DNA from: an uncultured Arcobacteraceae bacterium
GTDB taxonomy: Bacteria; Campylobacterota; Campylobacteria; Campylobacterales; Arcobacteraceae
NCBI GenBank assembly: GCA_964022095.1
Contig: CAXHZO010000009.1
Location: forward strand, 16,203-80,202
Reading direction: 5' to 3'
DNA length: 64,000 nucleotides
The notes under the pieces were generated by a model that had not been told where the DNA came from, did no database searches, and saw only the letters and a list, made by a program, of their open reading frames with translations. The translations under genes and the position numbers were made by a program. This document shows, one piece after another, positions 5,523 through 56,194 of the stretch (positions are counted from its first letter, which is position 1; every line of letters starts with the position of its first letter).

Positions 5523-6848
5523 ATGAGTATGTTTTGTTATCAATGTGAGATGAGTCAAAATGGTGGTTGTGGTAGTACTGGTGCAGTAGTTGGAACGTGT
5601 GGAAAAGATGAGAACCTAGCAAGACTACAAGATATAATGATATTTGGATTAAAAGGTCTTAGTGCATATAGAGAGCATTTAAATACTTTTAAGCCAGAAC
5701 TTACAAAAGAAGTTGATGATGTTATGTCTGAGACATTGTACTTCACTCTTACAAATGTAAATTTTAATTTTCAAGATCATATTAATCAACTTATGAAAGT
5801 AGGAAATGCAGGTGTAAAAGTTATGAGTTATTTAGGTGAAGCGCATATGAATAAATTTGGTATTCCAACTCCAGTTAAAGTTACTCAAAACAAAGTTGAG
5901 GGAAAAGCTATTTTAGTTTCTGGACATGACTTAGAGTTCTTTGAGAAACTTCTTATTGCAACACAAGATAAAGGTATCAATATCTATACTCACTCAGAAA
6001 TGCTTCCAGCTCATGGGTATCCTGAATTAAGAAAATTCAAGCATTTAAAAGGAAATGTAGGAAAAGCATGGTTTGACCAAGCAAAACTTATGGAAAAATT
6101 TCCTGGAACTTTTGTGGTAAACACTAACTGTATCGTTCCTCCAAAAAAGAATTGTGATTATATTGATAGAGTATTTACTCACAAAATCGTAGGAATAGAA
6201 GGTTCCACGCCAATTATTGACTATAATTTTGATGAATTAATTGAAAAAACACTATCTTGCCCAGATGCAAATGGAGTTGATTTAAATGAAGATAAATTCT
6301 TAACAACAGGACATAACTACAAAACTGTTTTAACACTAGCCCCATAAATATTAAAGGCATTAGAAGAAGGAAAAATCAAACAATTCTTTGTAGTAGCAGG
6401 TTGTGATGCACCTGGTCGTGGTGGAGAATACTATAGAGAATTAACACAAAATCTTCCAAAAGATACAGTAATCTTAACTTCATCTTGTGGTAAATTTAGA
6501 TTCAATGATATTGATTTTGGTGAAATAGAAGGAACAGGTATTCCTAGATACCTAGACTTAGGACAATGTAATGACTCTTATGGAGCAGTTGAAATTGCAA
6601 AAGCCTTAAGTGATGCACTTGATACTCCAATAAATGACTTACCAGTATCAATTATATTATCATGGATGGAACAAAAAGCAGTAATTATTTTATTAGCTCT
6701 ATTCTCACTTGGAGTTCAAAATATTTATTTAGGACCTAAACCTCCACAATTTGTTAACGAAGATATATTTAATTTCTTGGCTGAAAACTTTAACTTAACA
6801 CTTACAAGTGATGCAAAAACAGATTTAGAAAAACTATTAATCGCATAA
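5523..6848 (+). pseudogene. hcp: Hybrid cluster protein (hydroxylamine/NO reductase), short form, interrupted by an in-frame TAA at 6345-6347
   Basis: MFCYQC..C..CGK, SGHDL, YTHSEMLPAHGYP, TNC before the stop. The same frame continues after the TAA with VAGCD, SCGKFR, DLGQCNDS and SWMEQKA to the stop at 6848 (441 codons in total). Confidence 0.9.
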
Positions 6849-15482: not shown

Positions 15483-16409
15483 TTGAAAAAAACTCAGGAT
15501 ACCAATTTGCCGTTCGTTCTAAAGAAATTTAAAGTAATAAAAAATAAAACAATACAGATAAGTCTACTCCAAGATTTAGACCTTGACCGCCGTCAATCCA
15601 GTCGTTTACTTAGTCGTGGAAGAATTTTCAGAAGCGATAATAGTGCTTATAAAATATCAGATATTATTAAAGAAGATTATATTTATATTGCCATATTTGA
15701 AGGGCATACTAGAGGTTTAAAACCACTATTTACAACACCTAATTTTGCTATATTTGACAAGCCTTCAAATTTAGTAATTCATCCAAACTCAAAAAAGACA
15801 AAATATTCACTTTTAGATGAGATAAGATACCACTTTGGAGATAAGGCAAATCAAGCACATAGAATTGATGCTGAAACTTCAGGACTAGTATTAATAGGAA
15901 GAAATGAGAAAGTTACAAACTCACTTGCTACAATGTTTGAAGAAAAAGAGTACAAAAAATCTTATCTTGCAATAGTAAGAGGAGAAATAACACAAGATAT
16001 AACAATTGATAAGAACTTAAAAAAAGAGGGGAAATCAATTGGAGTTAAGATGGCTACATGTGAAAAAGAAGAGGGAAAAAGTTCGATTACAATTATAAAA
16101 CCTCTTAAATATAACCATATAAATAACTTAACTTTAGTAGAAGCTATTCCAATTACAGGAAGACAACATCAAATTAGAATTCATCTTCACTCAATTGGAC
16201 ATACAATATTTGGAGATCCAATTTATGGAGTAAGTGAAGATATAGCACAAAGTTATCTAAACAAAGATTTAAGTGATGAAAATAGATTTGAAGCTAGCGG
16301 ATCTTATAGATTATGGCTTCAAGCAAACTATTTAGAGTTTACATATAAAGGTGTGATTTATAAGATATTTTCAAAAAACAAAGATATATTAGCTCAATTT
16401 GAATCTTGA
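15483..16409 (+). CDS. RluA-family pseudouridine synthase (start may be the TTG at 15507)
   Basis: DKPSNLVIHP, HRIDAETSG catalytic Asp, TGRQHQIRIH, GDPIYG. Confidence 0.92.
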   Translation: MKKTQDTNLPFVLKKFKVIKNKTIQISLLQDLDLDRRQSSRLLSRGRIFRSDNSAYKISDIIKEDYIYIAIFEGHTRGLKPLFTTPNFAIFDKPSNLVIHPNSKKTKYSLLDEIRYHFGDKANQAHRIDAETSGLVLIGRNEKVTNSLATMFEEKEYKKSYLAIVRGEITQDITIDKNLKKEGKSIGVKMATCEKEEGKSSITIIKPLKYNHINNLTLVEAIPITGRQHQIRIHLHSIGHTIFGDPIYGVSEDIAQSYLNKDLSDENRFEASGSYRLWLQANYLEFTYKGVIYKIFSKNKDILAQFES

Positions 16410-18050
16410 TAAATCTTTGCCTTTTGTATCTATAATATGTACCGCACAAGCTAAACAAGGGTCAAAAGAGTGAATAACTTTTAAAACCTCAAGTGGCTTT
16501 GATAAATCTTCAATTTTTAGACCTATTAAAGCTTCTTCATATGCACCTCTTATTCCATCATAGTTTTTAGGAGTTGCGTTCCATGTTGTTGGGGCTATTA
16601 CTTGATAGTTTTTTACTTTTGAGTCTTTTATATTAACACTATGCAGTAAAACACCCCTTGGAACTTCTAAAAAACAACTATCATTTACATCTTTTTTTAA
16701 AGACTCAAACTTATAGCTATTAAAAGTTTGTGTGTCATCATATTTTATATTTTGAATTAAATTTGACATTAGTTTAAAGATATATTCACAAATATATTGG
16801 CTTTCAATTGCCCTTGCTATATTTCTTCCAATAGTACAATTCAAATCTTCTAGTTTTAAATCAACGCTTTGTAAAAACTCATCTACAAAACTATTTATTG
16901 CTGTATCATTATTCTTATAACTAATAAGAATCCTTGCTATTGGACCTGTTTCCATAGTCATATTTTCATATCTAGGTGCTTTTATCCAAGAGTATTTATC
17001 ATTTTCCTTACTTGTCTTTAGGGTTCCATCATCATTTAAATCTGTATAAAATGGCTCTTGAGGATTTTCATCATCATACCAAGCTCTTTGGACTAACTCT
17101 GTGATTTTGGAACTGTCAAACTCTTTTATCACATCTAAATTATCATCAAAAACTACACCACTTGAAAATAGTTTTTTTTCACTAGATATTTCATATCCAC
17201 CAACACACAAATAGTTTCCTAAAGTTTTTCCAACTTTTTCTTTTATCTCATCTTTATAGGCTATTGTTAAAAGCTTCATATCAGGGATATAAGCTCTATT
17301 TATAAACTCACTTGCTTCTTTTATAACAAATAAAAAATCATTTAATCTTTGTGGATTTATCATATCAGCAACACTTGTAACTCCACCAACAACTATTGAT
17401 TGAGGGTGGGGCGTTTTTCCACCAAAAATAGCTATAGCTTTTGATATTTTTGTTTGAAAAGTTAATGCTTCAAAATAATGAGATAGTAAAATCAAGTTTT
17501 CTTCACTACTTAGCTTATAATCACTATGACCAAAATAGTTACTATTAAAAGGTCCTAATTTTCCTGCATCAATAAAGTTTTTTAACTTTTGTAAAATAGT
17601 TTCATAGTGGGAGTGCGAATTTCTAAAAGGATGAGAACTATACTTATGTGCTTCTTTTGAAGTTTGTTTTACATCAGCTTCTAAAGCTTTAGTAACATCT
17701 ATAAAATCAAGTAAATGCAACTGATAAAAGTGTACAACATGGTCTTGAATAAACAAAGCCATACTCATCAAGTCTCTAATTATTTGGGCATTTTTAGGAA
17801 CTTTAATATCATAGGCATTTTCAACTGCACTTACACTTGCTCTAAAATGTGAATTTGTACAAACACCACAAATACGACCAGCAATTAGTCCAATATCCCT
17901 TGGATCTCTATCTTGTAAGATGATTTCAAGTCCACGAAACAACTGCCCACTAGCATATGCTTCTTTAACAATGTTTTGTTCATCTACTTCAACTTCAACT
18001 CTTAAATGACCTTCAATTCTTGTAATTGGATCAATAACTAGCTTTTTCAT
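16389..18050 (-). CDS. [NiFe]-hydrogenase large subunit, group-1-like
   Basis: IDPITRIEGHL, L1 RICGVC, L2 SFDPCLACAVH plus a 15-aa cleavable tail; GAGGA RBS before the ATG at 18050. Confidence 0.95.
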   Translation of the reverse strand: MKKLVIDPITRIEGHLRVEVEVDEQNIVKEAYASGQLFRGLEIILQDRDPRDIGLIAGRICGVCTNSHFRASVSAVENAYDIKVPKNAQIIRDLMSMALFIQDHVVHFYQLHLLDFIDVTKALEADVKQTSKEAHKYSSHPFRNSHSHYETILQKLKNFIDAGKLGPFNSNYFGHSDYKLSSEENLILLSHYFEALTFQTKISKAIAIFGGKTPHPQSIVVGGVTSVADMINPQRLNDFLFVIKEASEFINRAYIPDMKLLTIAYKDEIKEKVGKTLGNYLCVGGYEISSEKKLFSSGVVFDDNLDVIKEFDSSKITELVQRAWYDDENPQEPFYTDLNDDGTLKTSKENDKYSWIKAPRYENMTMETGPIARILISYKNNDTAINSFVDEFLQSVDLKLEDLNCTIGRNIARAIESQYICEYIFKLMSNLIQNIKYDDTQTFNSYKFESLKKDVNDSCFLEVPRGVLLHSVNIKDSKVKNYQVIAPTTWNATPKNYDGIRGAYEEALIGLKIEDLSKPLEVLKVIHSFDPCLACAVHIIDTKGKDLSRFKLS

Positions 18051-18054
18051 TTTA

Positions 18055-20478
18055 TTAATCCTCATCTTCTTTTATATAAACTCTTTCGTTTGCAAACTTA
18101 TCTATAAAGTTCATCTCTGTACAAGCCATACATCCATGACCAGCTTGAACTGGCCAAGAAGTGCCTTCATTAAATTTTGCTAAAGGACAGTTTACATTTG
18201 CATAAGGACCTTTACATCCCATTTGAAATAAACACCATCCATTCTTAGCTCCTTCATCTCCCCATTGCTCTACAAACTCTCCAAGTTCATAATGTCCACG
18301 TCTCTCACAATTATCATGAACTCTTTGAGAATACGCCCATAATGGACGATTTTGTTTATCAAGTGCTGGTAATTCTTCAAACATCATATAAGATAGTAGT
18401 GTTCCAACTATATTTATAGGATTAGTGGGACATCCTGGAAGATTAATAATATCATCTCTATTAAGTGCTTGAGAAACTCCAACTGCACCTGTTGGATTTG
18501 GCTTAGCAGCAACCACTCCACCATCATAAGCGCAACTTCCAACTGCTAAAACTAGTGCTGCATCTTTAGCACAGTTTTGTAAAAGTTCAAGTCCAGTTTG
18601 ACCTTTTGGGCCTATTCTTAAAAACTTGCCATCAAGTCCAAGGGGAATTGCTCCTTCTACTATTAAAATATATTCACCTTTTGAATTTTCTATAATATCT
18701 TCTAAAATTGATTCACTAAAATCTCCACTAGAACTCATAAGTAATTCATGATAATCAAGTGAAATATAATCAAATATTAAATCTTCAATTGCTGGATTTG
18801 CTGATTTGATAAAGGCTTCACTATTTCCACTACAATCTGCAAGCTCTAACCATATAATAGGAATTTTATTTAAGTTTTTCACCCCATCTTCTACTACACT
18901 TTCAAAAGAGGGATGAAGTTTCATACTAGCAGTTACCATAGAAATCCAACTATTTACCTCATCTTTTGCAAGATCTATCATTTTTAAAGCTGCTTCTAGG
19001 TTATTCTCATCAAGTTTATTTTTTGGATGTAGTCTTTTGAACTTCTCTACTCTTTTTTTAGCTTGATCTAACTCTTTTTCTCTTTGTATATCTTCAGGTG
19101 TCTTTCTTTTGATTGTAGGACAAGTTAAACTTTGAGAAGATTCAATAAGCTTTACAACATCATTTTTACATCTACCACAAACGCGTCCTGCTTGAGAATA
19201 CTCTTTTAAAGAAGAAAAAGAATCAATACCACACCTTGCAACTAAATCCTCTAAATCTTTTTCATAAGTATGTTCACAAGCACAAATAAGTCTACCTCTT
19301 TGACCTAATTGTCTATTTTCATATAGATAATTTACATCTATATTTTCACCTTTTTTTATAAGCTCTTCTATATACCCTGTATCAATATTTGAGTTAACTC
19401 CTAAAAATTTAACTAACTTGTCATCTTTTATAAAATATTCATCAACTCTATTATTAGAAGGTGATTCAATTAAAAGTTTTTCAAACTCTTTTGTAAAACT
19501 TGGGGAAGATATTTCAACTAATTCAAAACCTTTTGATTTGAGCATATCTACTGTTACTTCAAGTTCATAAGGGACATCATCTTCATTTAGTATATGTGAT
19601 ATTGCAATATTAGCTTGATTTGTACACTCTTTTACATGACCTGCTGTGAAATTGTATTTTTCAACTTGTGCACACTCTCCAATAGCATATATATCACTCT
19701 CATTAGTTTGCATATACTCATTTACTAAAATTCCTCTATCTATATTTACAAACTCTTTAAAAGCTTTAGCATTTGGTTTTATACCTATACCAAATATCAC
19801 AAAAGGATTTCGAATTGTTAGTTTCTTTGTTTTTAAAACTTTTATCTCGCTATCTTCAATAAGTGAGTTTTTTACATCTATTTCATCATTATATGAGATA
19901 GTTAAATTTTTATTCTCTTTTAAAATATTTTCAATAATCTTTACAGAGTTTGAAGATAAGTATTTACTATATAAATAATTACTTCTAATAAGTAGTGTAA
20001 TACTTTGTTTTAAAGCTAAAGTATTTAAGGTCTCTAATAACTCTAGTGATATTGGACCACTTCCTACTATTACTATATTATTTGTGTTGTAGTATTTCTT
20101 TATCTTTTCACAATCATCAATACTTCTAAACACTGCACTATTTTTAATATTAGAATCAAGTAAAGTTATTGGTGTAGAGCCAGTTGCTATTACTAACTTA
20201 TCATAACTATATACTTCATTATTAGATGTAATAGTTTTATTTTGTTTATCAATTGATTTTATATTTTGATTTAATTTTAGTTGAACTTTATTGTTAAGTT
20301 CTAATTGTATTGAATCTGTATTATCATTTCCATCTATTAAATTACATAAATAGACTCTATCATAAGGAGCTTTTTTTTCATTACTTAGCATAACTATATT
20401 ACAAGAACTATCTCTTGATAAAATAGTATTTGCAAAGTAAGTAGCGGCTATTCCACCACCTATTATTACTATATTCAT
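18055..20478 (-). CDS. Fusion of NirB-like FAD/NAD(P)H oxidoreductase, BFD-like [2Fe-2S] domain and [NiFe]-hydrogenase small subunit
   Basis: N-terminal IIGGGIAA, PYDRV.L, YDKLVIATGS, IYAIGECA. Middle ICACEH...AGRVCGRC. C-terminal WLELADCSGNSE, VGSCAYDGG, LPGCP, HDNCERR, WCLFQMGCKGP..NCP, GHGCMAC. Confidence 0.9.
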   Translation of the reverse strand: MNIVIIGGGIAATYFANTILSRDSSCNIVMLSNEKKAPYDRVYLCNLIDGNDNTDSIQLELNNKVQLKLNQNIKSIDKQNKTITSNNEVYSYDKLVIATGSTPITLLDSNIKNSAVFRSIDDCEKIKKYYNTNNIVIVGSGPISLELLETLNTLALKQSITLLIRSNYLYSKYLSSNSVKIIENILKENKNLTISYNDEIDVKNSLIEDSEIKVLKTKKLTIRNPFVIFGIGIKPNAKAFKEFVNIDRGILVNEYMQTNESDIYAIGECAQVEKYNFTAGHVKECTNQANIAISHILNEDDVPYELEVTVDMLKSKGFELVEISSPSFTKEFEKLLIESPSNNRVDEYFIKDDKLVKFLGVNSNIDTGYIEELIKKGENIDVNYLYENRQLGQRGRLICACEHTYEKDLEDLVARCGIDSFSSLKEYSQAGRVCGRCKNDVVKLIESSQSLTCPTIKRKTPEDIQREKELDQAKKRVEKFKRLHPKNKLDENNLEAALKMIDLAKDEVNSWISMVTASMKLHPSFESVVEDGVKNLNKIPIIWLELADCSGNSEAFIKSANPAIEDLIFDYISLDYHELLMSSSGDFSESILEDIIENSKGEYILIVEGAIPLGLDGKFLRIGPKGQTGLELLQNCAKDAALVLAVGSCAYDGGVVAAKPNPTGAVGVSQALNRDDIINLPGCPTNPINIVGTLLSYMMFEELPALDKQNRPLWAYSQRVHDNCERRGHYELGEFVEQWGDEGAKNGWCLFQMGCKGPYANVNCPLAKFNEGTSWPVQAGHGCMACTEMNFIDKFANERVYIKEDED

Positions 20479-20554
20479 CTTATCTCTTTTTAACTCTTAA
20501 ACCTTATGATTATTATATTACATTCAGGTCTAATATGCAAGATGGTATTATTTA

Positions 20555-21736
20555 TTATAGGCTTTTATCTGTTTGAAATCTTTTACCAAAAAGTAATAAT
20601 ACAATACCACCTAAAACAATAAATGCAGTTAAATATAATGCATAGTCATAGTTTCCAAATCTATCAATTAAATATACACTATAAAGAGGAGCTATCACTT
20701 GACCAATTCCATATGAAGTTGTAAGTGCACCCATTAGTACTACTGGATTATGTTTTGCAAGCTGACCTCCAAGGTTCATAAATAAAGCAACTAATCCAAC
20801 AAATGTTCCTCCATAAAAAATCCCACTTAAAAAGTTTAGATACAAATTATTTGAAAACGTTGGAATCAAAATACCTATTGTTTGTAAAAAAAGTGCAATG
20901 ATGATTATGTTTACACTTCCATACCTATGTGCTAACCTCATCCATATAATACAAGAAGGAATTCCAGCAAGTCCAACTAATGTCCATGTTAAGTTACCAT
21001 ATCCTTCAAGTCCTGGTAGATTATTAATAATATCAGGTAAAAATGTAGCTTGAACAACAAAGCCTACACCTTCTGCAAAATAAGCCATAATTAAAATTAT
21101 TACAAAAGGTGTGAAAATCTTAGCATCAATTTTATGTTGAGTTACATTTTGATTTACTTTTTTGTCAAAAGATAAAATATACATTGAATAAAAAGATAAT
21201 ACTATTGCAAAAATAGATAAAACTAACCATGAGTTTTCCCAAGTTCCACCATTACTTAATATATATCTACTTATTAAATCTGTTGTTAAAATAGAAAAAC
21301 CAATACCACTAAAGTGTATACCCATAGCTTTTGTTTTACTCTCTAATTTTAACTTCATCATTACAATAGCAGATCCAACTACAAAAGCCATTGCTCCAGC
21401 AAAACCTGCGATTATTCTTGCTATTACCCATACAGTATCATTTGTAGAGATACTTAAAACAACTGTTGAAATTATGGCTAAAAAAATACCAACTCTAAAA
21501 AGTATTACTTTTTGATTTATATCTTTTATAAAAATTGAAAGAATAGAACCACTTAAATAACCTGCAAAATTAAGTGAAGCCAAAATTCCTGCAAATGTAA
21601 TAGTAAGATAGTCCTCAAGCATTGCAGGAAGAAGTGAAGTAAAAGCAAACCTTGAAACACCAAGTCCTATAATTACTGCAAAAATTCCTGCAATTATAAT
21701 TGCTAGGTTATCATCTTTGTTTAATAATCTATTCAT
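20555..21736 (-). CDS. YbfB/YjiJ-family MFS transporter
   Basis: About 12 TM segments; GVSRFAFTSLLPAM, LASLNFAGYLSG, YGIGQVIAP. Confidence 0.88.
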   Translation of the reverse strand: MNRLLNKDDNLAIIIAGIFAVIIGLGVSRFAFTSLLPAMLEDYLTITFAGILASLNFAGYLSGSILSIFIKDINQKVILFRVGIFLAIISTVVLSISTNDTVWVIARIIAGFAGAMAFVVGSAIVMMKLKLESKTKAMGIHFSGIGFSILTTDLISRYILSNGGTWENSWLVLSIFAIVLSFYSMYILSFDKKVNQNVTQHKIDAKIFTPFVIILIMAYFAEGVGFVVQATFLPDIINNLPGLEGYGNLTWTLVGLAGIPSCIIWMRLAHRYGSVNIIIIALFLQTIGILIPTFSNNLYLNFLSGIFYGGTFVGLVALFMNLGGQLAKHNPVVLMGALTTSYGIGQVIAPLYSVYLIDRFGNYDYALYLTAFIVLGGIVLLLFGKRFQTDKSL

Positions 21737-29128: not shown

Positions 29129-29875
29129 ATGATAAAAACAATATTAATTTTAACTCTTTTTTGTATTTCTTTATTTGCTCAAAAAATTAACATTGCAGTT
29201 GCAGCTAATGTTAGCTATGCAATCAATGATTTAATAAAACAGTTCAATAAATCAAATCCTAATACAAAAGTAATAGTAACACTAGGAAGTAGTGGAAAAC
29301 TAACAGCACAGATTAAAAATGGTGCACCATATGATATATTTATGTCTGCAAATATGAAATATCCAAACTCTTTATTTGAAGATAAAATTGCTATTACCAA
29401 ACCTATAGTTTATGCCCATGGAAGTTTAGCCCTTCTCACTGGAAAAAATCTTGATCTTTCAAAAGAACTAGAACTTTTAAAAGATAAAAAAATCAAGAAA
29501 ATAGCCATTGCAAATCCTAAAACTGCACCTTATGGAAAAGCAACAGTACAAGCACTAAAAAATGCAAATATATATGATTTGATATATAAAAAATTTGTGT
29601 ATGGAGAATCAATTTCTCAAACTGTAACCTATGCCACAAGAGCTACAGATATAGGATTTATTGCAAAATCTTCACTATATAGTTCAAAAATGAAAGCCTA
29701 CAAAAAAAATATCCATTGGATTGATATTGATTCATCTTTATATACTCCAATAAATCAAGGAATTGTAATACTAAAAAAAGCTTCAAAGATTCAAGAAGCA
29801 AAAGATTTTTATGAATTTATATTAAGCCAAAAAGCAAAAAATATATTTAAAGAATATGGATATTTAATTCCATGA
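29129..29875 (+). CDS. modA: Molybdate ABC transporter substrate-binding protein
   Basis: AVAAN, GSSGKL..QI..GAPYDIFMSA, IANPKTAPYG. Confidence 0.95.
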   Translation: MIKTILILTLFCISLFAQKINIAVAANVSYAINDLIKQFNKSNPNTKVIVTLGSSGKLTAQIKNGAPYDIFMSANMKYPNSLFEDKIAITKPIVYAHGSLALLTGKNLDLSKELELLKDKKIKKIAIANPKTAPYGKATVQALKNANIYDLIYKKFVYGESISQTVTYATRATDIGFIAKSSLYSSKMKAYKKNIHWIDIDSSLYTPINQGIVILKKASKIQEAKDFYEFILSQKAKNIFKEYGYLIP

Positions 29876-30273
29876 ATAGATTAAAAGCCCTTGTAACAAA
29901 TATTGATAGATTAGACAGTTTAAATATTGTTAGTTTTGATTTTAGTGGAATAACTCTAAAAATGATGAGCTTAGAACTCAATGAAAAAATCAATATTGGA
30001 ACAACTGTTATTCTTGCAGTGAAACCAACCCATGTAACTTTTGCTAAAAACTTTCAAGGTTATATTAGTGTAACAAATCAATTTAGAGCAAGAATAAAAG
30101 GGATAAATAACGGCAAACTACTAAGTAGTGCTATTTTTGAGACAAAAGGAACTTTAATAGAAAGTGTTTTTACAACTACTAGTTTAAGACAAATGAACCT
30201 ACAACTTCATGATGAGTTTACAATCATGGTAAAAGCTAGTGATATCTCTATAAAGGAGATTTGTGATGATTGA
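29872..30273 (+). CDS. TOBE/Mop-domain molybdate-binding protein
   Basis: Two TOBE-like repeats (MNRLKA..., SVTNQF.A.I..I..G.L, VKASDI) inside the mod operon. Confidence 0.8.
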   Translation: MNRLKALVTNIDRLDSLNIVSFDFSGITLKMMSLELNEKINIGTTVILAVKPTHVTFAKNFQGYISVTNQFRARIKGINNGKLLSSAIFETKGTLIESVFTTTSLRQMNLQLHDEFTIMVKASDISIKEICDD

Positions 30274-30958
30274 TACTTTTACAAACATTGATTTTCAACC
30301 GTTTTATATCTCTTTTAAATTAGCATTTGTCACAACTTTGATTTTGTTTATTATATCTTTACCACTATCTTGGTACTTATCTCAAACCAAGTCAAAAGCA
30401 AAACCATTTTTAGAAGCTATTACTGCACTTCCTTTAGTACTTCCTCCTTCTGTAATTGGATTTTATATTTTATGGGCATTGTCTTATAATTCACCTATTG
30501 GAGCTTTTTTTGAAGAGACTTTTGGAGTAAGTTTAGTATTTAATTTTACGGGACTTGTCATAGCAAGTTGTTTTTATAGCTTGCCTTTTATGGTACAACC
30601 ACTTCAAAATGGATTTGAAAGCTTAGATAAAAATATGCTAGAAGCAAGTTTTATTGCAGGTAAAGGGAAAATAAAGACTATATTTAAAATAGCCCTTCCA
30701 AATATCAAACCAGCTTTATTAACTGCACTAATAGTGACTTTTGCCCATACAGTTGGTGAGTTTGGAGTGGTTTTAATGGTGGGTGGAAGTATCCCAGGTG
30801 ATACAAAAGTAGCCTCTGTTGCAATATATGAATTTGTAGAAATAATGGATTATAGCTCTGCTCATGTGTATAGTATTATTATGATAATAATCAGTTTTTT
30901 AGTGCTACTTAGTGTTTATATTTTTAATCAAAAGAATAATAAAAAATTTGGGGTATAA
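30263..30958 (+). CDS. modB: Molybdate ABC transporter permease
   Basis: LPLVLPPSVIGF, YSLPFMVQP, FAHTVGEFGVVLMVGGSIPG. Confidence 0.95.
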   Translation: MMIDTFTNIDFQPFYISFKLAFVTTLILFIISLPLSWYLSQTKSKAKPFLEAITALPLVLPPSVIGFYILWALSYNSPIGAFFEETFGVSLVFNFTGLVIASCFYSLPFMVQPLQNGFESLDKNMLEASFIAGKGKIKTIFKIALPNIKPALLTALIVTFAHTVGEFGVVLMVGGSIPGDTKVASVAIYEFVEIMDYSSAHVYSIIMIIISFLVLLSVYIFNQKNNKKFGV

Positions 30959-31035: not shown

Positions 31036-31938
31036 ATGAACAATTCAAATATTGAAAACCAAATTATTACAATAGATAATATCAAAACAAAAATATACAC
31101 CATTAGAGATCTTCAAGTTATGCTTGATAGTGATTTAGCTTTAATTTACGGTGTAACAACAAAAAGACTAAATGAACAAGTAAAAAGAAATATCGAAAGA
31201 TTCCCTGAAAGTTTTAGATTTCAACTAAATAAATTGGAAAAAAATGAGCTGGTCGCAAAATGCGACCACCTTGAAAATCTAAAATTCTCAACTTCATTAC
31301 CCTACGTTTTCACAGAACAAGGTGTATCTATGCTAAGTGCTGTACTTAAAAGTGAAACTGCTATAAAAACAAGTATAAAAATCATAGAATCATTTGTAAA
31401 TATGCGAAAATTCTTATCTTCAAACAATGAACTCTTTCAAAAAATAGAAACTTTAGAGAAAAGACAAATATCTTATGAAATAAAAAGTGATGAAAAATTT
31501 GAAGAAATATTTAAAGCAATAGAAGAAAAATCTATCAAACCAAAACAAGGAATATTTTTTGAGGGTCAAGTTTATGATGCCTATATATTTATTTCTGATT
31601 TAATCAAAAATGCTAAAAAAAGTATAATCTTGATGGATAATTATATAGATGATTCAGTTTTAACTCTTCTTTCAAAAAGAGATTCAAAAATAACTGCTAT
31701 AATCTATACTAATAATATAAATAAACAACTCCAATTAGATATCAAAAAATATAATCTACAATACCAAAAAATAGAGATAAAAAAATTTACTCTAAGTCAC
31801 GATAGATTTTTAATAATAGATGAAAATGAGATTTATCATATAGGAGCTAGTTTAAAAGACTTAGGCAAAAAATGGTTTGCCTTTTCAAAACTAGATATCA
31901 ATAGTTTTGAACTATTATCAAAGATAAAGGAAGTATAA
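31036..31938 (+). CDS. ORF6N DNA-binding domain protein with C-terminal PLD-like domain
   Basis: IRDLQVMLDSDLALIYGV.TKRLNEQVKRNIERFP..F.FQL, PYVFTEQGVSML (ORF6N); DNYIDD and HDRFLIID..YHIGASLKD (PLD-like). Confidence 0.85.
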   Translation: MNNSNIENQIITIDNIKTKIYTIRDLQVMLDSDLALIYGVTTKRLNEQVKRNIERFPESFRFQLNKLEKNELVAKCDHLENLKFSTSLPYVFTEQGVSMLSAVLKSETAIKTSIKIIESFVNMRKFLSSNNELFQKIETLEKRQISYEIKSDEKFEEIFKAIEEKSIKPKQGIFFEGQVYDAYIFISDLIKNAKKSIILMDNYIDDSVLTLLSKRDSKITAIIYTNNINKQLQLDIKKYNLQYQKIEIKKFTLSHDRFLIIDENEIYHIGASLKDLGKKWFAFSKLDINSFELLSKIKEV

Positions 31939-31939
31939 A

Positions 31940-34042
31940 TTGGAATTAGTTTATTTATGGGTTGAAAAGTATAAAAATATAGAAAATCAAGGCTTTAATT
32001 TCTCTCCTAGATTTGATTGTAATTTTGATAAAAGAACTAATGAAAATGAAAAACTTGATTTAAAAAATAGTATTTTATCAATAAAAGAAAAAAATGATTC
32101 AATAAATTTATATCCTAATAATATTAATGTAACAGCTATTGTTGGAGAAAATGGTAGTGCAAAAAGTACATTAGTTGAATTAATCACTTTCTTTAGAATT
32201 GAGAAAATAGGTAATATATTAGAAAATAAAATCTTAATTTTAGTATTTGAAGAAAATGATACACTATATATTCCTGATATGAATTTTATAGATTTGTCTC
32301 ACTCCTTTGAAAAAATCAATATACAAATTATTAATAAAACTAAATTTAATATTCAAGAAGGGTATACCCATGCAAGTGAACTTTTTGATATCAGTATATT
32401 TTTAAATGATTTAAGTAATTTTACAGACCAATCTAAAATACATGAATCTTTAAAAATTGATAAATATGAAAGTTTATATAATGGCTATCATATCTTGTAT
32501 GAAAATGATACAAAAGACTATTCTTTAATCCAAAAAGAGTTTGATGCAAAATATGCGTTTATAAATTCTAAAGATGATAAATTTTTTCACTTTCTAAACG
32601 AAAAATTCTTGTTTAGTAAAATGAGTATAAATATTGATGTTGAAAGTTTAGTCAATTTTAATTTTTTAAATGAAGAAGACAAAGATATTTTCAAAGAAAT
32701 AAAAAAATATTTTTATGATTTTTCAGGTTATACTCTGTCTGAAGAAGCTTTAATTTATAAAAAAGATTATGAAAATAGATATACATCAGAATATTCAAAA
32801 ATACAAAAAGAATATCTAATTTATAAAATGACATCTTTTTTACAAATAAAAAACTATTATCGTCTTATAAACAATTTTTCTAGAGATTTTAAAGAAGGAA
32901 TTCTAAAAGAAAAATATCTAAAAAATGTATTTAAAGAAATTGAAATTCAAATTACTCCTTTTTCTCCTTCACAAAATATAAAAAGTTCATATAATATATT
33001 AGAAAAAAAAAGATTAAGCATATCGTATTTCAATAACTTAATAATTAATTTAAATAAAGCTTTTAATTACATTGATAAATCATTTATTGATTTATTTAAA
33101 GATAAAAAGGGCTTATTAAAAGACTACAAAAGCTTTAGAAAGGAATTAATAAAATTCAATCACTATAAAACTTTTATAAAAATAGTTAGTAAAAACTTTA
33201 AGCTTGTTCAAGACCGACCAAAAGATATTTTATCAATTAAATTTGATAAAATTTCATCCTCAATTATAAACAATTTTAATAAGAAATTAAATAAAAATAT
33301 AAATTTTGCAACTTTATATAATTCTGGTCAACTCTATATGAATTTTCTACATGAAACTAATGATAACTACACATATCAGAATTTAAGCACTGGAGAAAAA
33401 TCATTATTAAAATTCTTAGTAAACTTTGTCTTCACTATAAATAATTTAGATTATTCAAAAAGATCAGTAATTTTCTTTGATGAAATTGAATGTAGTCTTC
33501 ATCCAATTTGGCAAAAAAAGATATTTAATATTATTTTGAAACTAATATCAAAAAAGATGTTTATAGAAAATAAAACTAAATGGCACTTTATATTTTTAAC
33601 TCATTCCCCTTTTATATTATCAGATATACCTAAAGAGAATGTAGTTTTTCTTAAAAATGGTAAACAAGAATATCCATTTAAAGAAAATGAACAAACTTTT
33701 GGAGCAAATATTCATACTCTTTTATCTCATGGTTTCTTTATGGAAGATGGTCTTATGGGAGAGTTTGCAAAAAGCAAAATTGAAGCTATAAAAAACTTTT
33801 ATGACGATGTTAAAAAATCTGAAAATCCAAAAGATGAATTTTTAGAAAAATATATAAGCAATATTGAAGAATTTAAAAATATTCAAAAAATTATTGGTGA
33901 ACCATTTTTGAAAACAATTATAGGTAATTATCTTGAAGAATTAGAGTTGATTCTTTCTGATGAAGATTTAATCAATAAAGAACTAAAAGAACTAAAATCT
34001 AGAATAACACATTTAAAGAAGTTACGAAATGACAAAAATTAA
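31940..34042 (+). CDS. ABC/AAA_21-type ATPase, PtuA-like (TTG start)
   Basis: Walker A GENGSAKST, signature LSTGEK, Walker B FFDEIECSLHP, H-loop THSPF, TFGANIH. Confidence 0.85.
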   Translation: MELVYLWVEKYKNIENQGFNFSPRFDCNFDKRTNENEKLDLKNSILSIKEKNDSINLYPNNINVTAIVGENGSAKSTLVELITFFRIEKIGNILENKILILVFEENDTLYIPDMNFIDLSHSFEKINIQIINKTKFNIQEGYTHASELFDISIFLNDLSNFTDQSKIHESLKIDKYESLYNGYHILYENDTKDYSLIQKEFDAKYAFINSKDDKFFHFLNEKFLFSKMSINIDVESLVNFNFLNEEDKDIFKEIKKYFYDFSGYTLSEEALIYKKDYENRYTSEYSKIQKEYLIYKMTSFLQIKNYYRLINNFSRDFKEGILKEKYLKNVFKEIEIQITPFSPSQNIKSSYNILEKKRLSISYFNNLIINLNKAFNYIDKSFIDLFKDKKGLLKDYKSFRKELIKFNHYKTFIKIVSKNFKLVQDRPKDILSIKFDKISSSIINNFNKKLNKNINFATLYNSGQLYMNFLHETNDNYTYQNLSTGEKSLLKFLVNFVFTINNLDYSKRSVIFFDEIECSLHPIWQKKIFNIILKLISKKMFIENKTKWHFIFLTHSPFILSDIPKENVVFLKNGKQEYPFKENEQTFGANIHTLLSHGFFMEDGLMGEFAKSKIEAIKNFYDDVKKSENPKDEFLEKYISNIEEFKNIQKIIGEPFLKTIIGNYLEELELILSDEDLINKELKELKSRITHLKKLRNDKN

Positions 34043-34976
34043 CTATCCAAAAGATTTTGATAGAAATAAATATTATGAGAAGATATCAAAAAAATATTTC
34101 TATATTAGTAAAAATGAATATTTAAAATTTAAAATTAAATCTCATTCAACTGATAAAATTACACTTGAAGAGATTTTCAATTATTTTAAAACAAATAAAA
34201 TAGAAAATTTTCACACTATTTTCAAAGATATCAGTTTTAAATATTTGCTGATTGGAAACTTTCTTATATTAAAAAAAATAAAAAAATATCTTAAATCAAT
34301 AAAAGGAAATAAAGGCATTGATTTCCTGTTTAATTATACTTCTTTACAAAGTAAAAAAATCAAACCTTTTTTTGAAGATAATCTCTTAATTTCAACTTGT
34401 TATTACTGTAATATTGACTTTATAAATGTTTACTCTAAGAAAAAAAGAAAAAAAAATAAATTTACACTAGACCATTATTTTGATAAATTTACTTACTCTT
34501 ATTTAGCGTTATCTCTTTATAATTTTGTTCCTAGTTGTTATACATGTAATAGTAAACTAAAAGGTACTATTGAGTTTAATAATTTATCTCCAACTTCTAA
34601 AAAATACAACTTCAATGAAAAAGTAAGATTCAAAATAAAGTTATCGAGTAATTGTAAACATTTAGATATTAAAGATAAAACAGATATTGATTTAGAATTA
34701 AAAGAAAGCTATTCAAAAGACTATAAAGACTTTATTGAAAAAATGTTTTTAAATGAAAGGTATGAAGTTCATAAAGACTTAGTCTTTGATATGATTAAAA
34801 AAGCAGAACTATATCCAGAAAGCAGATTAAAAGAGTTACAAAACCTAACTGGAATGCCATTTCAACAAATAAAAAAAGATATTTTTAATTTAATTGACGA
34901 AAATGAAGATTTATCAAAAAAACCTTTTAGTAAACTAATCAAAGATATTAGTGAAGAATTAGGATTAATAAAATGA
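34029..34976 (+). CDS. HNH endonuclease, PtuB-like
   Basis: CYYCN...LDHYFDK...YNFVPSCYTCN zinc-bound HNH motif; overlaps the ATPase stop. Confidence 0.83.
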   Translation: MTKINYPKDFDRNKYYEKISKKYFYISKNEYLKFKIKSHSTDKITLEEIFNYFKTNKIENFHTIFKDISFKYLLIGNFLILKKIKKYLKSIKGNKGIDFLFNYTSLQSKKIKPFFEDNLLISTCYYCNIDFINVYSKKKRKKNKFTLDHYFDKFTYSYLALSLYNFVPSCYTCNSKLKGTIEFNNLSPTSKKYNFNEKVRFKIKLSSNCKHLDIKDKTDIDLELKESYSKDYKDFIEKMFLNERYEVHKDLVFDMIKKAELYPESRLKELQNLTGMPFQQIKKDIFNLIDENEDLSKKPFSKLIKDISEELGLIK

Positions 34977-35821
34977 TTGAAATAAACATAGAAAAACAAT
35001 TGCATGGTTCACAAGGACAAATGAACTTAGATATAGATTTACAAATACAAAATGGTGATTTTATAGCTCTAAGTGGTCTTAGTGGTAGTGGTAAAACTAC
35101 ACTTTTAAGAATCATTGCAGGTCTAGAAGAAGCAAGTGGAACTATAAAAATAGATGATGAAATTTGGCTAGATGAAAGACACAATCTTGCAGTTCAAAAA
35201 AGAAAAATCGGTTTTGTATTTCAAGATTATGCACTATTTACTAATATGTCAGTAATGCAAAATCTTCTTTATGTTTCAAATGATAAAAAATTAGCAAGTG
35301 ACTTACTAGAAATCACAGAACTAAGTGAACTAAAAAATAGAATGCCAAATACTTTAAGTGGTGGACAAAAACAGCGAGTTAGTTTATGTAGAGCCATGAT
35401 GAATAAACCAAAACTACTACTTATGGATGAACCCCTTTCAGCACTTGATCCAGCTATGAGAACAAAACTACAAAGTGAAATTTTGCAACTTCACAAAGAG
35501 TTTAATACAACTACAATAATGGTAAGCCACGATCCAAGTGAGATTTATAGACTTAGCAATAGAGTTATAGTTTTACAACAAGGTAAAATCATAGATGATG
35601 GAGATGCTAGAAAAGTACTACTTAAAACAAATGGTAGTGCAAAATTCTCTTTTGAAGGAGAATTACTAGAAATCATAAAAGTTGATGTAATCTCAATTGC
35701 TATTGTATCAATAGGTCAACAAATAGTTGAAATTGTAATTAGTCACGAAGAAGCTTCAAATCTAAGTTTAGGACAAAAAGTAAATGTAAGCACAAAAGCA
35801 TTTGCACCACTAATTGATTAA
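34973..35821 (+). CDS. modC: Molybdate ABC transporter ATP-binding protein
   Basis: GLSGSGKTT, FQDYALF, LSGGQKQRV, LLMDEP, C-terminal TOBE-like domain. Confidence 0.92.
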   Translation: MIEINIEKQLHGSQGQMNLDIDLQIQNGDFIALSGLSGSGKTTLLRIIAGLEEASGTIKIDDEIWLDERHNLAVQKRKIGFVFQDYALFTNMSVMQNLLYVSNDKKLASDLLEITELSELKNRMPNTLSGGQKQRVSLCRAMMNKPKLLLMDEPLSALDPAMRTKLQSEILQLHKEFNTTTIMVSHDPSEIYRLSNRVIVLQQGKIIDDGDARKVLLKTNGSAKFSFEGELLEIIKVDVISIAIVSIGQQIVEIVISHEEASNLSLGQKVNVSTKAFAPLID

Positions 35822-43796: not shown

Positions 43797-46145
<2,349 letters not shown>

Positions 46146-47216: not shown

Positions 47217-47385
47217 TTTATCTCCTAATATATTTTATTAATCTAGTAGAAATAGTAGACCATGTGAAAAGATGAAAACACATCTTAAACTACTTGGTAG
47301 TAGTACTTTGTCATAGTGAATAGAATTGACTTTATATTCACACCTTTTCACATTTACTTTTAAAACTTTTTTTTAAAAGCTTTTT
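47217..47385. other. oriC2 subregion (DUE, DnaA-trios, DnaA boxes)
   Basis: AT tract 47226-47242; TAG-TAG-AAA-TAG-TAG 47244-47258; boxes TGTGAAAAG 47263, AGTGAATAG 47315, ATATTCACA 47334, CTTTTCACA 47344. Confidence 0.8.
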
Positions 47386-54177: not shown

Positions 54178-54559
54178 TGTCCCATTCCTCTAAATGTTTA
54201 GCAAATCTTTTTCTTTGTTTATTATTCAAAATTGCATGTATTTTTTCAAGTTTCTCAGCCTCTAATGAAATAGACTTTTGGTGATGATTTTGCAATATTT
54301 CTATATATTTTTCTTTATCAAATTTTTTAGCTTTGAATATATCTTCTATTTTATCTTCTATTTCATCTTCATCTTTATAGAAGTTATGATATTTCTTTTT
54401 AAATTCAATTAAAATGTTTCTTATATCTTTTATTTGAGTTGAATTTAAATCTAAGTATCTAAGATCTTTATATCTATGTTTATGCTTATATTCATTATTA
54501 TCAGCATATACAAAAGAGTATAGACTAATTAAAACTAGAAAGATTTTTAATGTTTTCAT
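54170..54559 (-). CDS. Spy/CpxP-like periplasmic protein
   Basis: Signal peptide; LDLNSTQ and ILNNKQR LTxxQ-like motifs; lies upstream of the two-component pair. Confidence 0.72.
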   Translation of the reverse strand: MKTLKIFLVLISLYSFVYADNNEYKHKHRYKDLRYLDLNSTQIKDIRNILIEFKKKYHNFYKDEDEIEDKIEDIFKAKKFDKEKYIEILQNHHQKSISLEAEKLEKIHAILNNKQRKRFAKHLEEWDND

Positions 54560-55644: not shown

Positions 55645-55653
55645 TAAATCCTT

Positions 55654-56184: not shown

Positions 56185-56194
56185 TTTTAATCCT

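What the first reader, a model, noticed from the sequence alone, without database searches (positions are those of the whole stretch)
16389..20478. Two-gene [NiFe]-hydrogenase whose small subunit is fused to a NirB-type flavoprotein and BFD [2Fe-2S] module: candidate new soluble NAD(P)-linked hydrogenase
Seen: one uninterrupted 807-aa ORF joins three parts. These are a pyridine nucleotide-disulfide oxidoreductase domain with NirB/NasB/rubredoxin-reductase motifs (GGGIAA, PYDRV.L, YDKLVIATGS, IYAIGECA), a BFD-like C-x-C...C-x2-C module, and, after a charged helical linker, a complete hydrogenase small subunit. A group-1-like large subunit (RICGVC / DPCLACAVH plus tail) starts 4 nt later. There is no Tat RRxFLK signal, no C-terminal TM anchor, and no cytochrome b or maturation protease in the locus, which ends head-on against rluA. 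Known: group 1 enzymes are Tat-exported and quinone-coupled via cytochrome b, while characterised NAD(P)-linked [NiFe] enzymes (groups 3b/3d) use unrelated HydB/G or HoxFU modules. Inference: a cytoplasmic H2:NAD(P)+ oxidoreductase, or an H2-to-ferredoxin/rubredoxin electron relay, assembled independently on a group-1 scaffold. I know of no characterised example but cannot exclude prior mention.
Basis: partly seen in the sequence, partly recalled or inferred. Interest (0 to 1): 0.88.

Follow-up and report, generated by a model that had tools for sequence, protein, structure and literature searches.

The report
Flavoprotein-fused cytoplasmic nickel-iron hydrogenase
A marine Arcobacter-like bacterium carries a two-gene nickel-iron hydrogenase whose small subunit is fused to an NAD(P)H-binding flavoprotein, a design that genome papers have noted since 2006 but that nobody has tested biochemically, so this is one more member of a known, uncharacterised enzyme type.

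Summary
Window 18055-20478 (-) is one 807-aa ORF joining a NirB/ferredoxin-reductase-type FAD/NAD(P)H module, a BFD [2Fe-2S] domain, a helical linker and a group-1 [NiFe] small subunit. The large subunit follows directly. It is not an assembly chimera. Independent contigs bridge the junction, and all 80 best relatives' loci span it, 70 of them full length.

The claim of novelty does not hold. Scott et al. 2006 described this architecture in Thiomicrospira crunogena XCL-2 and proposed the same H2:NAD(H) idea. Two later papers extend it to Campylobacterota. No biochemical characterisation turned up in my searches. This scan met the family before on three other genomes.

Details added here:
- The canonical proximal-cluster Cys is an invariant Asn, as reported for group 1f.
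- The linker is a conserved relic of the Tat signal peptide, with the twin arginines replaced by Lys-Asp.
- The dinucleotide site looks NADPH-type.
- This locus has no protease or hyp genes; they lie elsewhere in the genome.
- In the sister species, insertion sequences cut the flavoprotein module.

Best reading: a cytoplasmic, reversible H2:NAD(P)+ oxidoreductase (confidence about 0.55).

The parts
19291..20478 (-). Residues 1-396 of the fused small subunit: a ferredoxin-reductase/NirB-type flavoprotein with FAD, NAD(P)H and C-terminal subdomains.
   Evidence: Pfam Pyr_redox_2 covers residues 1-276 (E 4e-42). NirB TIGR02374 is colinear over 3-447. In the AF2 model, blocks 1-380 have pLDDT 74-97. 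Foldseek's best hits are putidaredoxin reductase, toluene dioxygenase reductase and BphA4, with TM by target 0.80-0.83 over about 400 columns. The FAD motif at residues 7-12 and the NAD(P) motif at 139-146 are conserved in 27 of 27 full-length relatives.
19984..19986 (-). Arg165, just after beta-2 of the dinucleotide fold. No acidic residue ends beta-2 (Ile164).
   Evidence: Arg165 is present in 27 of 27 full-length family members, and none has Asp or Glu at the beta-2 end. In the alignment to putidaredoxin reductase, its beta-2 Asp pairs with Ile164. The NADPH preference is inferred from the classical Rossmann-fold rule.
19141..19290 (-). BFD-like [2Fe-2S] domain (residues 397-446) with Cys399, Cys401, Cys434 and Cys437.
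   Evidence: Pfam Fer2_BFD, E 8e-8. The four Cys are invariant in 28 of 28 sequences.
18874..19140 (-). Charged helical linker (residues 447-535). Its second half is a relic of the Tat signal peptide; Lys505-Asp506 stand where the twin arginines were.
   Evidence: BLASTP aligns residues 468-793 with residues 4-326 of the same genome's canonical HydA precursor (48% identity, E 1e-112). That protein's RR pairs with K505-D506. N509, W511, S513, M514, M519, L521 and F525 are invariant. dN/dS against the sister species is 0.16. AF2 predicts helices at 461-483, 491-517 and 523-536 with low confidence.
18058..18873 (-). Group-1 [NiFe] small-subunit domain (residues 536-807). Proximal cluster site has 3 Cys plus Asn552, the medial site is [3Fe-4S]-type, and the distal site is His plus 3 Cys. 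There is no C-terminal anchor.
   Evidence: Best solved relatives are group-1 small subunits, led by the R. eutropha membrane-bound hydrogenase HoxK (E 2e-78). In that alignment Cys17 of HoxK pairs with Cys549 and Cys20 with Asn552. C549, N552, C649, C683, H721, C724, C749, C755, C783 and C786 are invariant; C764 and P776 are nearly invariant. dN/dS is 0.03.
16389..18050 (-). [NiFe] large subunit. It is 553 aa from the ATG at 18050; the longest ORF starts at 18065 and gives 558 aa. It carries a 15-residue C-terminal tail after the final His.
   Evidence: Pfam NiFeSe_Hases, E 5e-190. The two Cys-x2-Cys motifs that bind the metal site are present. Best solved relative is the D. vulgaris Miyazaki F group-1 enzyme (E 1e-131). 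It is 44% identical to the genome's own HydB, with a similar tail. The start choice follows.
20479..20554 (-). 76-nt spacer between the upstream MFS transporter gene (20555-21736, same strand) and the fused gene.
   Evidence: Sequence read. A TATAAT-like hexamer is visible, but the consensus scan listed no site there, so promoter use is not shown. The LysR and MFS genes upstream are shared only with locus L009.

Best explanation
The two genes encode a cytoplasmic heterodimeric [NiFe]-hydrogenase of the 'XCL-2 / cluster I' type.

Proposed mechanism: H2 is split at the Ni-Fe site of the large subunit. Electrons then pass through three clusters of the small-subunit domain: a proximal site with 3 Cys plus Asn, a medial [3Fe-4S], and a distal [4Fe-4S] with His plus 3 Cys. 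From there they reach the fused BFD [2Fe-2S] and then the FAD of the ferredoxin-reductase-type module, which reduces NAD(P)+, probably NADP+. The reaction should be reversible.

Origin: a Tat-exported group-1 small subunit was joined, signal peptide included, behind the N-terminal half of a NirB-like reductase. The signal peptide lost its twin arginines and became a conserved linker.

Maturation in this genome must rely on hyp genes and proteases encoded elsewhere.

Shown here: the domain architecture, the cofactor ligands, the absence of export and anchor signals, and conservation. Inferred: the electron path, the acceptor, the direction and the physiological role (reductant supply from H2 without reverse electron flow).
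For: Architecture and its integrity:
- Domain matches.
- All [2Fe-2S], [3Fe-4S] and [4Fe-4S] ligands and the FAD and NAD(P) motifs are invariant or nearly so in 28 relatives of 51-77% identity.
- Purifying selection on every part: dN/dS 0.03-0.18.

Flavoprotein module:
- Its fold matches NAD(P)H:[2Fe-2S]-ferredoxin reductases.
- It is colinear with the NirB N-terminal half, which in NirB carries electrons between NAD(P)H, FAD and the BFD cluster (the NirB role is established knowledge).
- No CoA-disulfide-reductase-type catalytic Cys. That Cys pairs with Val42, and Cys45 pairs with the Ser of ferredoxin reductases.

Cytoplasmic location:
- No Tat motif, no anchor, no cytochrome b in the locus.

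Fusion is real and old:
- All 80 best loci span the junction, 70 of them full length.
- The large subunit follows in 62 of 65 loci with room for it.
- Partner large subunits form one clade (62 tips, support 0.947).
- Contigs from other studies bridge the linker.

Literature:
- The homologue is transcribed in Hydrogenovibrio SP-41, most strongly with H2 as sole donor (PMC6501319, passages).
- The same mechanism was proposed in PMC1635747.
Against: - No activity has ever been shown. XCL-2, which has only this hydrogenase, did not consume H2 and had no activity in any fraction. SP-41 activity was in the membrane fraction, not the soluble one (PMC4744846 and PMC6501319). Which electron acceptor those fraction assays used was not in the passages I read.
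- The proximal cluster lacks a canonical Cys, so its type and potential are unknown.
- In the only other genome of the same genus, two insertion sequences cut the flavoprotein module, so the fused form is dispensable there.
- There is no dedicated protease in this locus.
- The AF2 model has pTM 0.56 and low confidence for the BFD domain, the linker and the small-subunit domain. It says nothing on cluster-to-flavin distances.
Confidence: 0.55

Rival explanations
1. It is the same enzyme, but physiologically it works as a redox valve. Under acceptor shortage it oxidises excess NAD(P)H and releases H2.
For: Scott et al. 2006 offered this as an alternative for XCL-2. It would fit the absence of H2 uptake in XCL-2. 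The chemistry is reversible in principle.
Against: Transcription in SP-41 is highest when H2 is the only electron donor. In 14 of 76 loci the genes lie beside an Ech-type cluster, and in 17 beside hyp genes, in H2-oxidising chemolithoautotrophs. H2 evolution from NAD(P)H is unfavourable except at very low H2.
Confidence: 0.15
2. It is not a free-standing NAD(P)-linked enzyme. Either it is a decaying or inactive hydrogenase, or it works only when attached to another hydrogenase's membrane components.
For: Hansen & Perner 2016 and Gonnella et al. 2019 raise both ideas. No soluble activity was found. A proximal-cluster Cys is missing. This locus has no protease or hyp genes. The sister species has an IS-disrupted copy.
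Against: Every cofactor ligand is invariant across relatives down to 51% identity. dN/dS is 0.03-0.18. The junction is present in 18 of 34 sampled genomes of one family. The Cys-to-Asn change is a regular feature of other lineages that keep Tat signals, reported for group 1f, and is not a sign of decay. The large-subunit tail resembles that of the genome's own HydB, so an existing protease could process it (inference).
Confidence: 0.12
3. It is an H2-fuelled protective enzyme. Electrons from H2 reach the flavin and are used, directly or through NAD(P)H, to remove O2 or peroxides in microaerophiles living at oxic-anoxic interfaces.
For: The proximal-cluster signature is shared with group 1f, which HydDB's table labels 'oxygen-protecting' with an unresolved role. 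The second-best solved sequence relative of the flavoprotein is a NirB-family protein, 3klj. From recall, that protein is an NADH:rubredoxin oxidoreductase of an O2-detoxifying chain.
Against: No rubredoxin, rubrerythrin or flavodiiron gene lies in this locus. The conserved neighbours found in relatives' loci were protease, Ech, hyp, cytochrome b and housekeeping genes. The NAD(P) site is intact and conserved, which points to a pyridine nucleotide as substrate.
Confidence: 0.1

Closest known systems
'Hydrogenase gene cluster I' of Hydrogenovibrio (Thiomicrospira) crunogenus XCL-2 and SP-41 (Tcr2037/2038) and its relatives in Sulfurimonas autotrophica, Sulfurovum, Sulfuricurvum and Arcobacter nitrofigilis
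   Same: A small subunit of about 810 aa with a pyridine-nucleotide-disulfide oxidoreductase module in front of a group-1 small subunit. No Tat motif, no cytochrome b, and the large subunit adjacent. The S. autotrophica protein (P0069) is 63% identical to the window's over 100% of its length.
   Different: In XCL-2 the hyp and maturation genes form one operon with the structural genes. Here the locus holds only the two structural genes, between an MFS transporter gene and a pseudouridine synthase gene. HypD and both proteases lie on another contig.
Canonical membrane-bound group-1 [NiFe]-hydrogenase HydABC of Campylobacterota, of which this genome has two copies on contig C7
   Same: Homologous large subunit (44% identity) and small subunit (48% identity, including the signal-peptide region). 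Same medial and distal cluster ligands. Similar large-subunit C-terminal tail.
   Different: The canonical enzymes have an RR Tat signal, a C-terminal membrane anchor, a cytochrome b gene and their own protease gene, plus four Cys at the proximal cluster. The fused enzyme has none of the first four and has Asn in place of one Cys.
NAD(P)-linked soluble [NiFe]-hydrogenases of groups 3d (HoxEFUYH) and 3b (sulfhydrogenase)
   Same: The proposed reaction, H2 + NAD(P)+ <-> NAD(P)H + H+, in the cytoplasm.
   Different: Group-3 models match the large subunit only weakly (ShyA E 6e-32, HydA E 2e-19), whereas group-1 models reach E 1e-134 to 1e-146. The NAD(P) module here is a NirB/ferredoxin-reductase-type FAD protein fused to the small subunit. 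In groups 3d and 3b the module is instead a set of separate NuoF-like FMN or GltD-like subunits (that statement rests on established knowledge).
NirB/NasB nitrite reductase large subunit (N-terminal half) and NAD(P)H:[2Fe-2S]-ferredoxin reductases (putidaredoxin reductase, BphA4)
   Same: FAD and NAD(P)H domains followed by a BFD [2Fe-2S] domain, colinear with NirB model positions 1-467. Fold match TM 0.80-0.83.
   Different: The siroheme/[4Fe-4S] catalytic half of NirB is replaced by a hydrogenase small subunit. The sister genome's own NirB-like gene is only 25% identical to this module.
Group 1f [NiFe]-hydrogenases (Roseiflexus, Geobacter, Frankia)
   Same: One proximal-cluster Cys is replaced by Asn or Asp (PMC5364354, passage read). 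The nearest unfused small-subunit representatives show the same change.
   Different: Those relatives keep the Tat signal and a C-terminal extension. The published classification of the fused enzyme's large subunit is group 1b. I could not run HydDB.

Membership tests
XCL-2-type flavoprotein-fused [NiFe]-hydrogenase ('cluster I') | One polypeptide of about 800 aa joining a pyridine-nucleotide-disulfide oxidoreductase module to a hydrogenase small subunit | tested here: met
   Pfam and NCBIfam domain order. The protein is 63% identical over its full length to the S. autotrophica protein that Hansen & Perner list as XCL-2-like.
XCL-2-type flavoprotein-fused [NiFe]-hydrogenase ('cluster I') | No Tat motif, no cytochrome b, large subunit adjacent | tested here: met
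XCL-2-type flavoprotein-fused [NiFe]-hydrogenase ('cluster I') | Direct sequence orthology to Tcr2037/Tcr2038 | not tested
   The gammaproteobacterial sequences were not among the 120 listed hits or the 80 kept loci, and I could not fetch them.
Group 1 respiratory uptake [NiFe]-hydrogenases | Large subunit with the two Cys-x2-Cys metal-binding motifs and a cleavable C-terminal tail, most similar to group-1 enzymes | tested here: met
Group 1 respiratory uptake [NiFe]-hydrogenases | Twin-arginine signal peptide on the small subunit (periplasmic location) | tested here: not met
   The region homologous to the signal peptide is internal, and K505-D506 stand in place of RR.
Group 1 respiratory uptake [NiFe]-hydrogenases | Membrane anchor and cytochrome b partner (quinone coupling) | tested here: not met
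   No C-terminal hydrophobic segment and no cytochrome b gene within the locus. The genome's own canonical enzymes have both.
Group 1 respiratory uptake [NiFe]-hydrogenases | Four Cys ligands at the proximal cluster | tested here: not met
   Asn552 pairs with Cys20 of HoxK and is invariant in 28 of 28 sequences.
HydDB subgroup 1b versus 1f | Subgroup assignment by the HydDB classifier or a reference tree | not testable with these tools
   The literature says 1b for the large subunit. The small subunit's proximal motif is 1f-like. No HydDB reference set was at hand.
Group 3b/3d NAD(P)-linked soluble [NiFe]-hydrogenases | Group-3 type catalytic subunits with HoxFU or HydBG-type diaphorase subunits | tested here: not met
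   Group-3 NCBIfam models score far below group-1 models. No such subunit genes lie in the locus.
NirB/NasB nitrite reductase | FAD/NAD(P)H module plus BFD [2Fe-2S] | tested here: met
NirB/NasB nitrite reductase | NIR_SIR siroheme/[4Fe-4S] catalytic domain | tested here: not met
   No NIR_SIR match in P0001. The NirB model scores 150 bits against a cut-off of 578.

The most novel reading that the evidence does not exclude
This family is a third, independently evolved class of NAD(P)+-reducing [NiFe]-hydrogenase and needs only two genes. It was made by bolting a NirB-type NADPH/FAD/[2Fe-2S] module onto a formerly periplasmic, Asn-ligated (1f-like) group-1 enzyme. The disarmed Tat signal peptide was kept as a conserved structural linker, or as a docking site for maturation chaperones. 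In chemolithoautotrophic Campylobacterota it would supply NADPH directly from H2. Where it lies beside an Ech-type cluster, the pair would supply both NADPH and reduced ferredoxin for CO2 fixation without reverse electron flow.
Probability: 0.45. Interest if true: 0.7.

Novelty: new member of a known kind. Interest (0 to 1): 0.38.

Why it matters
If the proposed reaction is real, this is the simplest known way to make NAD(P)H from H2. It would need one heterodimer and no diaphorase subunits.

The enzyme is also common in environmentally important sulfur and hydrogen oxidisers: the fusion junction was found in 18 of 34 sampled genomes of one Campylobacterota family. Published surveys classify its large subunit as group 1b, a class described as respiratory. 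So genome-based budgets of H2 use may misassign it.

For this window the finding is not new. The value added here lies in details that make the enzyme easier to test:
- the invariant Asn at the proximal cluster;
- the NADPH-type dinucleotide site;
- the relic Tat linker;
- the dependence on maturation genes encoded elsewhere.

Tried and rejected
- Structure prediction of the 807-aa protein worked only for the flavoprotein part. The BFD domain, the linker and the small-subunit domain had low pLDDT, and pTM was 0.56. I drew no inference on domain packing or cofactor distances.
- Expression: no RNA holder was listed for the stretch.
- A CoA-disulfide-reductase or NADH-oxidase-type mechanism using the conserved Cys45 was rejected. 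The catalytic Cys of B. anthracis CoADR pairs with Val42, not Cys45.
- Assembly chimera was rejected.
- A recent fusion with the host's own nirB was rejected. The sister genome's NirB-like gene is only 25% identical to the module.
- Subgroup placement: a quick FastTree of 104 small-subunit domains put the fused clade on a long stem, near unfused lineages without Tat motifs and lineages with Asn or Asp at the proximal site. It had no named references and a doubtful root, so I use it only as a hint.
- An Ech-type hydrogenase in this genome: the two Complex1_49kDa matches look like NuoD genes, so the Ech adjacency seen in relatives does not apply here.
- Greening et al. 2016 (ISME J) was not held in the library.
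- I did not open the supplements of Hansen & Perner 2016 (operon figure S5) or Han & Perner 2015 (Table S1). They may list further carriers.


Full report
**What is there**

On the minus strand of an AT-rich window (GC 0.27-0.34) lie two adjacent ORFs: 18055-20478 (807 aa, P0001) and 16389-18065 (558 aa, P0002).

Pfam finds four domains in P0001:
- Pyr_redox_2, residues 1-276, E 4e-42
- Fer2_BFD, residues 397-446
- Oxidored_q6, residues 549-696
- NiFe_hyd_SSU_C, residues 716-796

P0002 matches NiFeSe_Hases at E 5e-190. NCBIfam shows two colinear halves in P0001. The NirB model (positions 1-467 of 794) covers residues 3-447, and the hydA small-subunit model covers residues 490-796. For P0002, group-1 large-subunit models reach E 1e-134 to 1e-146, while group-3 models reach only 1e-19 to 1e-32.

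The likelier large-subunit start is the ATG at 18050. It lies 4 nt after the small-subunit stop and 8 nt downstream of a GAGGA.

Neighbours:
- upstream, an MFS transporter gene on the same strand, separated by 76 nt, and a divergent LysR gene;
- downstream, a convergent pseudouridine synthase gene, then purB and nrdAB.

No cytochrome b, protease or hyp gene lies in the locus.

**Is the fusion real?**

Yes, on four lines of evidence.
- All 120 listed homologues are 801-819 aa long, cover 99-100% of the query at 63-100% identity, and carry the same four Pfam families. They include proteins of complete Sulfurimonas genomes.
- A scan of one genome per species found 262 pattern matches, of which 211 encode a relative. 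Of the 80 kept loci, 70 match from residue 1 to at least residue 795. All 80 span residues 304-770, which includes the junction. By record title, 76 are Campylobacterota lineages and 4 are labelled only 'bacterium'. The best matches, at 77%, are an Arcobacter isolate and an Aliarcobacter MAG, so the window's organism is an Arcobacteraceae.
- Contigs of runs from other studies bridge the linker. X5 record 6 covers 18745-19450 with no differences, X7 records 21 and 22 cover it together, and X8 record 29 covers 18850-19156. X5 and X6 look like one data set.
- Against one representative per 50%-identity cluster of 1.84 billion proteins, only one full-length representative appears among the best 150. 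The fused family is therefore a compact clade.

**Prior description**

- Scott et al. 2006 (PMC1635747; passages read) reported that the XCL-2 small subunit has a hydrogenase domain and a pyridine nucleotide-disulphide oxidoreductase domain with FAD and NADH sites, and lacks the twin-arginine leader. [quoted passage not shown] They also suggested a reductant-sink role.
- Hansen & Perner 2016 (PMC4744846; section 13 and passages) give its length as 813 aa and note the missing cytochrome b. They find the same 'untypical large small subunit' in Thioalkalimicrobium, Sulfuricurvum kujiense, Sulfurovum sp. AR, S. autotrophica and Arcobacter nitrofigilis. They assign the large subunits to group 1b and remark that the subgroup-specific FeS motifs are not conserved. 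XCL-2 showed no hydrogenase activity in any fraction.
- Gonnella et al. 2019 (PMC6501319; passages) call it cluster I. They show by qRT-PCR that it is transcribed in SP-41, most strongly with H2 as the only donor, and leave its function open.
- The Sulfurimonas review (PMC4584964; section 11) does not mention the fusion. The 'cytoplasmic hydrogenase' discussed for S. denitrificans is a different, group-2 enzyme.
- Of my ten paper searches, those bore on this enzyme. None brought up a biochemical characterisation. The last was judged from titles and abstract starts only.
- This scan had met the family on three other genomes. Two follow-ups reached the same literature; one stated that no paper describes it, which my reading contradicts.

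**Anatomy in more detail**

*1. Flavoprotein module.* The AF2 model is confident for residues 1-385. Foldseek places that part with NAD(P)H:[2Fe-2S]-ferredoxin reductases such as putidaredoxin reductase, toluene dioxygenase reductase and BphA4 (TM by target 0.80-0.83).
- The FAD and dinucleotide glycine motifs are conserved in 27 of 27 full-length relatives.
- The residue ending beta-2 is never acidic and is followed by an Arg in 27 of 27 sequences. In the alignment to putidaredoxin reductase, that enzyme's Asp pairs with Ile164. By the classical Rossmann-fold rule this suggests NADPH, or dual specificity. This is an inference. From recall, engineered BphA4 variants at the matching three positions shift preference towards NADPH; their PDB titles appear.
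- The conserved Cys45 does not align with the catalytic Cys of CoA-disulfide reductase.

*2. BFD domain.* All four Cys are invariant.

*3. Linker.* BLASTP aligns residues 468-793 with residues 4-326 of the canonical HydA precursor of the same genome (48% identity, E 1e-112). That precursor's RR pairs with K505-D506, and its hydrophobic core pairs with a more polar stretch. The nearest unfused representatives align in the same way through their RR motifs. This relic is strongly conserved, with seven invariant positions and dN/dS 0.16. It has therefore taken on a new role, which is unknown.

*4. Small-subunit domain.*
- Against R. eutropha HoxK, Cys17 pairs with Cys549 and Cys20 with Asn552. The two extra Cys of O2-tolerant enzymes are Gly here.
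- Cys549 and Asn552 are invariant in 28 of 28 sequences, as are the remaining proximal, medial and distal ligands. Pro776 marks a [3Fe-4S] medial site; that last reading is an inference.
- I aligned 101 unfused representatives of at least 300 aa with 8 fused proteins. In 94 of these 109 rows the first Cys of the motif aligns. Among those 94, the second position is Cys in 65, Asn in 19 (8 fused, 11 unfused, 8 of the latter with an RR motif), Asp in 7, Glu in 2 and Leu in 1. The other 15 rows were gapped or misaligned.
- Mohammadi et al. 2017 (PMC5364354; passage) report this Cys-to-Asn/Asp change for group 1f and Asn coordination in group 2a. The 'non-conserved FeS motif' noted in 2016 is therefore a regular variant and not a sign of decay.

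*5. Large subunit.* Both metal-binding motifs are present. The protein is 44% identical to the genome's own HydB, and its 15-residue tail resembles HydB's.

**Genomic setting**

The genome (2.57 Mb, 31 contigs) also holds the following:
- two canonical small subunit - large subunit - cytochrome b - protease sets on contig C7, the first cut at the contig start so that its small-subunit gene is not seen;
- a group-2-like pair on C15;
- HypD on C7.

Maturation of the fused enzyme must therefore be provided in trans.

Across the 76 loci with a fused ORF (the window included):
- 65 have at least 1.6 kb downstream, and a large subunit follows in 62 of them; of the other three, L057 has its large subunit further downstream after an insertion, L052 has an unclustered 531-aa ORF after the fused gene, and L045 has only short ORFs;
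- a HycI-family protease gene directly follows the large subunit in 11 and lies somewhere in the locus in 25;
- an Ech-type group-4 cluster is adjacent in 14;
- hyp genes are present in 17;
- a cytochrome b gene, belonging to a neighbouring canonical hydrogenase where I looked, is present in 7.

The two closest relatives (L008, L009) share the window's two-gene layout and downstream synteny. Large subunits paired with fused small subunits form one clade of 62 tips, apart from only four canonical sequences (support 0.947).

**Distribution**

- The junction (residues 380-560, E <= 1e-30) occurs in 24 of 184 genomes of the window's family, in 10 of 22 genera.
- It occurs in 27 of 401 genomes sampled from the phylum. 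By coded family the counts are 18 of 34, 5 of 20, 2 of 23 and 1 of 4, and none in the two largest families (0 of 118 and 0 of 158).

**A disrupted copy next door**

The only other genome of the same genus (G156, complete) has the gene in two pieces:
- residues 1-226 at 84% identity, ending in a stop at the break;
- residues 261-807 at 94% identity.

The pieces are separated by about 2.85 kb that encode a DDE transposase and an IS3-type transposase pair. The large subunit there is intact. This is an insertion-sequence hit, not a natural split form. It shows that the fused form can be lost.

**Mechanism and verdict**

The best-supported reading is a cytoplasmic, reversible H2:NAD(P)+ oxidoreductase. 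Its internal relay would run from the Ni-Fe site through three FeS clusters to the [2Fe-2S] cluster, then to FAD and NAD(P)+. The domains, ligands, conservation and lack of export signals are shown. The path, the acceptor and the direction are inferred.

The main counter-evidence comes from the literature: no soluble activity has been found, and XCL-2 does not take up H2. The altered proximal cluster also leaves the enzyme's potentials unknown.

The finding is real and correctly read, but it is a further member of an enzyme type known from genomes since 2006.

Noticed in passing
L088 (G156:C1:29000-38000) and G156:C1:28841-29518: In the only other genome of the same genus, the fused gene is cut at about residue 226 by roughly 2.85 kb carrying a DDE transposase and an IS3-type (HTH_Tnp_1 + rve) pair. 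A 506-aa BFD + small-subunit ORF and an intact large subunit remain.
   Followed up: yes
Loci L018, L027, L030-L032, L034-L036, L041, L044, L047, L071, L077, L087: In 14 of 76 loci the fused hydrogenase genes lie directly beside an Ech-type group-4 hydrogenase cluster (Proton_antipo_M, NADHdh, Oxidored_q6, Complex1_30kDa, Complex1_49kDa, Fer4). The pair might supply NAD(P)H and reduced ferredoxin together from H2.
   Followed up: partly
window 18874-19075 (residues 468-535): The disarmed Tat signal peptide inside the protein is among the best conserved stretches of the linker. This suggests a new structural or chaperone-docking role.
   Followed up: partly
ESM Atlas cluster (structure row 2): A cluster of 60 proteins of about 442 aa, mostly Campylobacterota, carries Fer2_BFD (70% of members) plus small-subunit domains but no flavoprotein module. 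These could be fragments or a real shorter form.
   Followed up: no
own genome, contig C15 (L004: 208-1092 and 1096-2448): A group-2-like cytoplasmic or sensory hydrogenase pair (294 aa + 450 aa). Its small subunit also shows a Cys-x-Gly-Asn motif at the proximal site.
   Followed up: no
window 31036-34976: Three genes sit between the modA/TOBE/modB-like transporter genes (29129-30958) and the ABC ATPase gene (34973-35821): an ORF6N-domain protein, a 700-aa AAA_21/SMC_N ATPase and a 315-aa ORF with no Pfam match. This may be a mobile or defence insert in a transporter operon.
   Followed up: no
window 43797-48702: gyrB, dnaN and dnaA lie here, so the hydrogenase is about 23-28 kb from the probable replication origin.
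   Followed up: no
window 5523-6347: A 274-aa ORF matches only positions 139-338 of the 513-position Prismane/hybrid-cluster-protein profile. It may be a truncated gene.
   Followed up: no
window 54525-56596: A cluster of DUF1924, dihaem cytochrome c, cytochrome b561 (Ni_hydr_CYTB family) and a second dihaem cytochrome c lies next to a two-component system. It is 34 kb from the hydrogenase and not linked to it.
   Followed up: no
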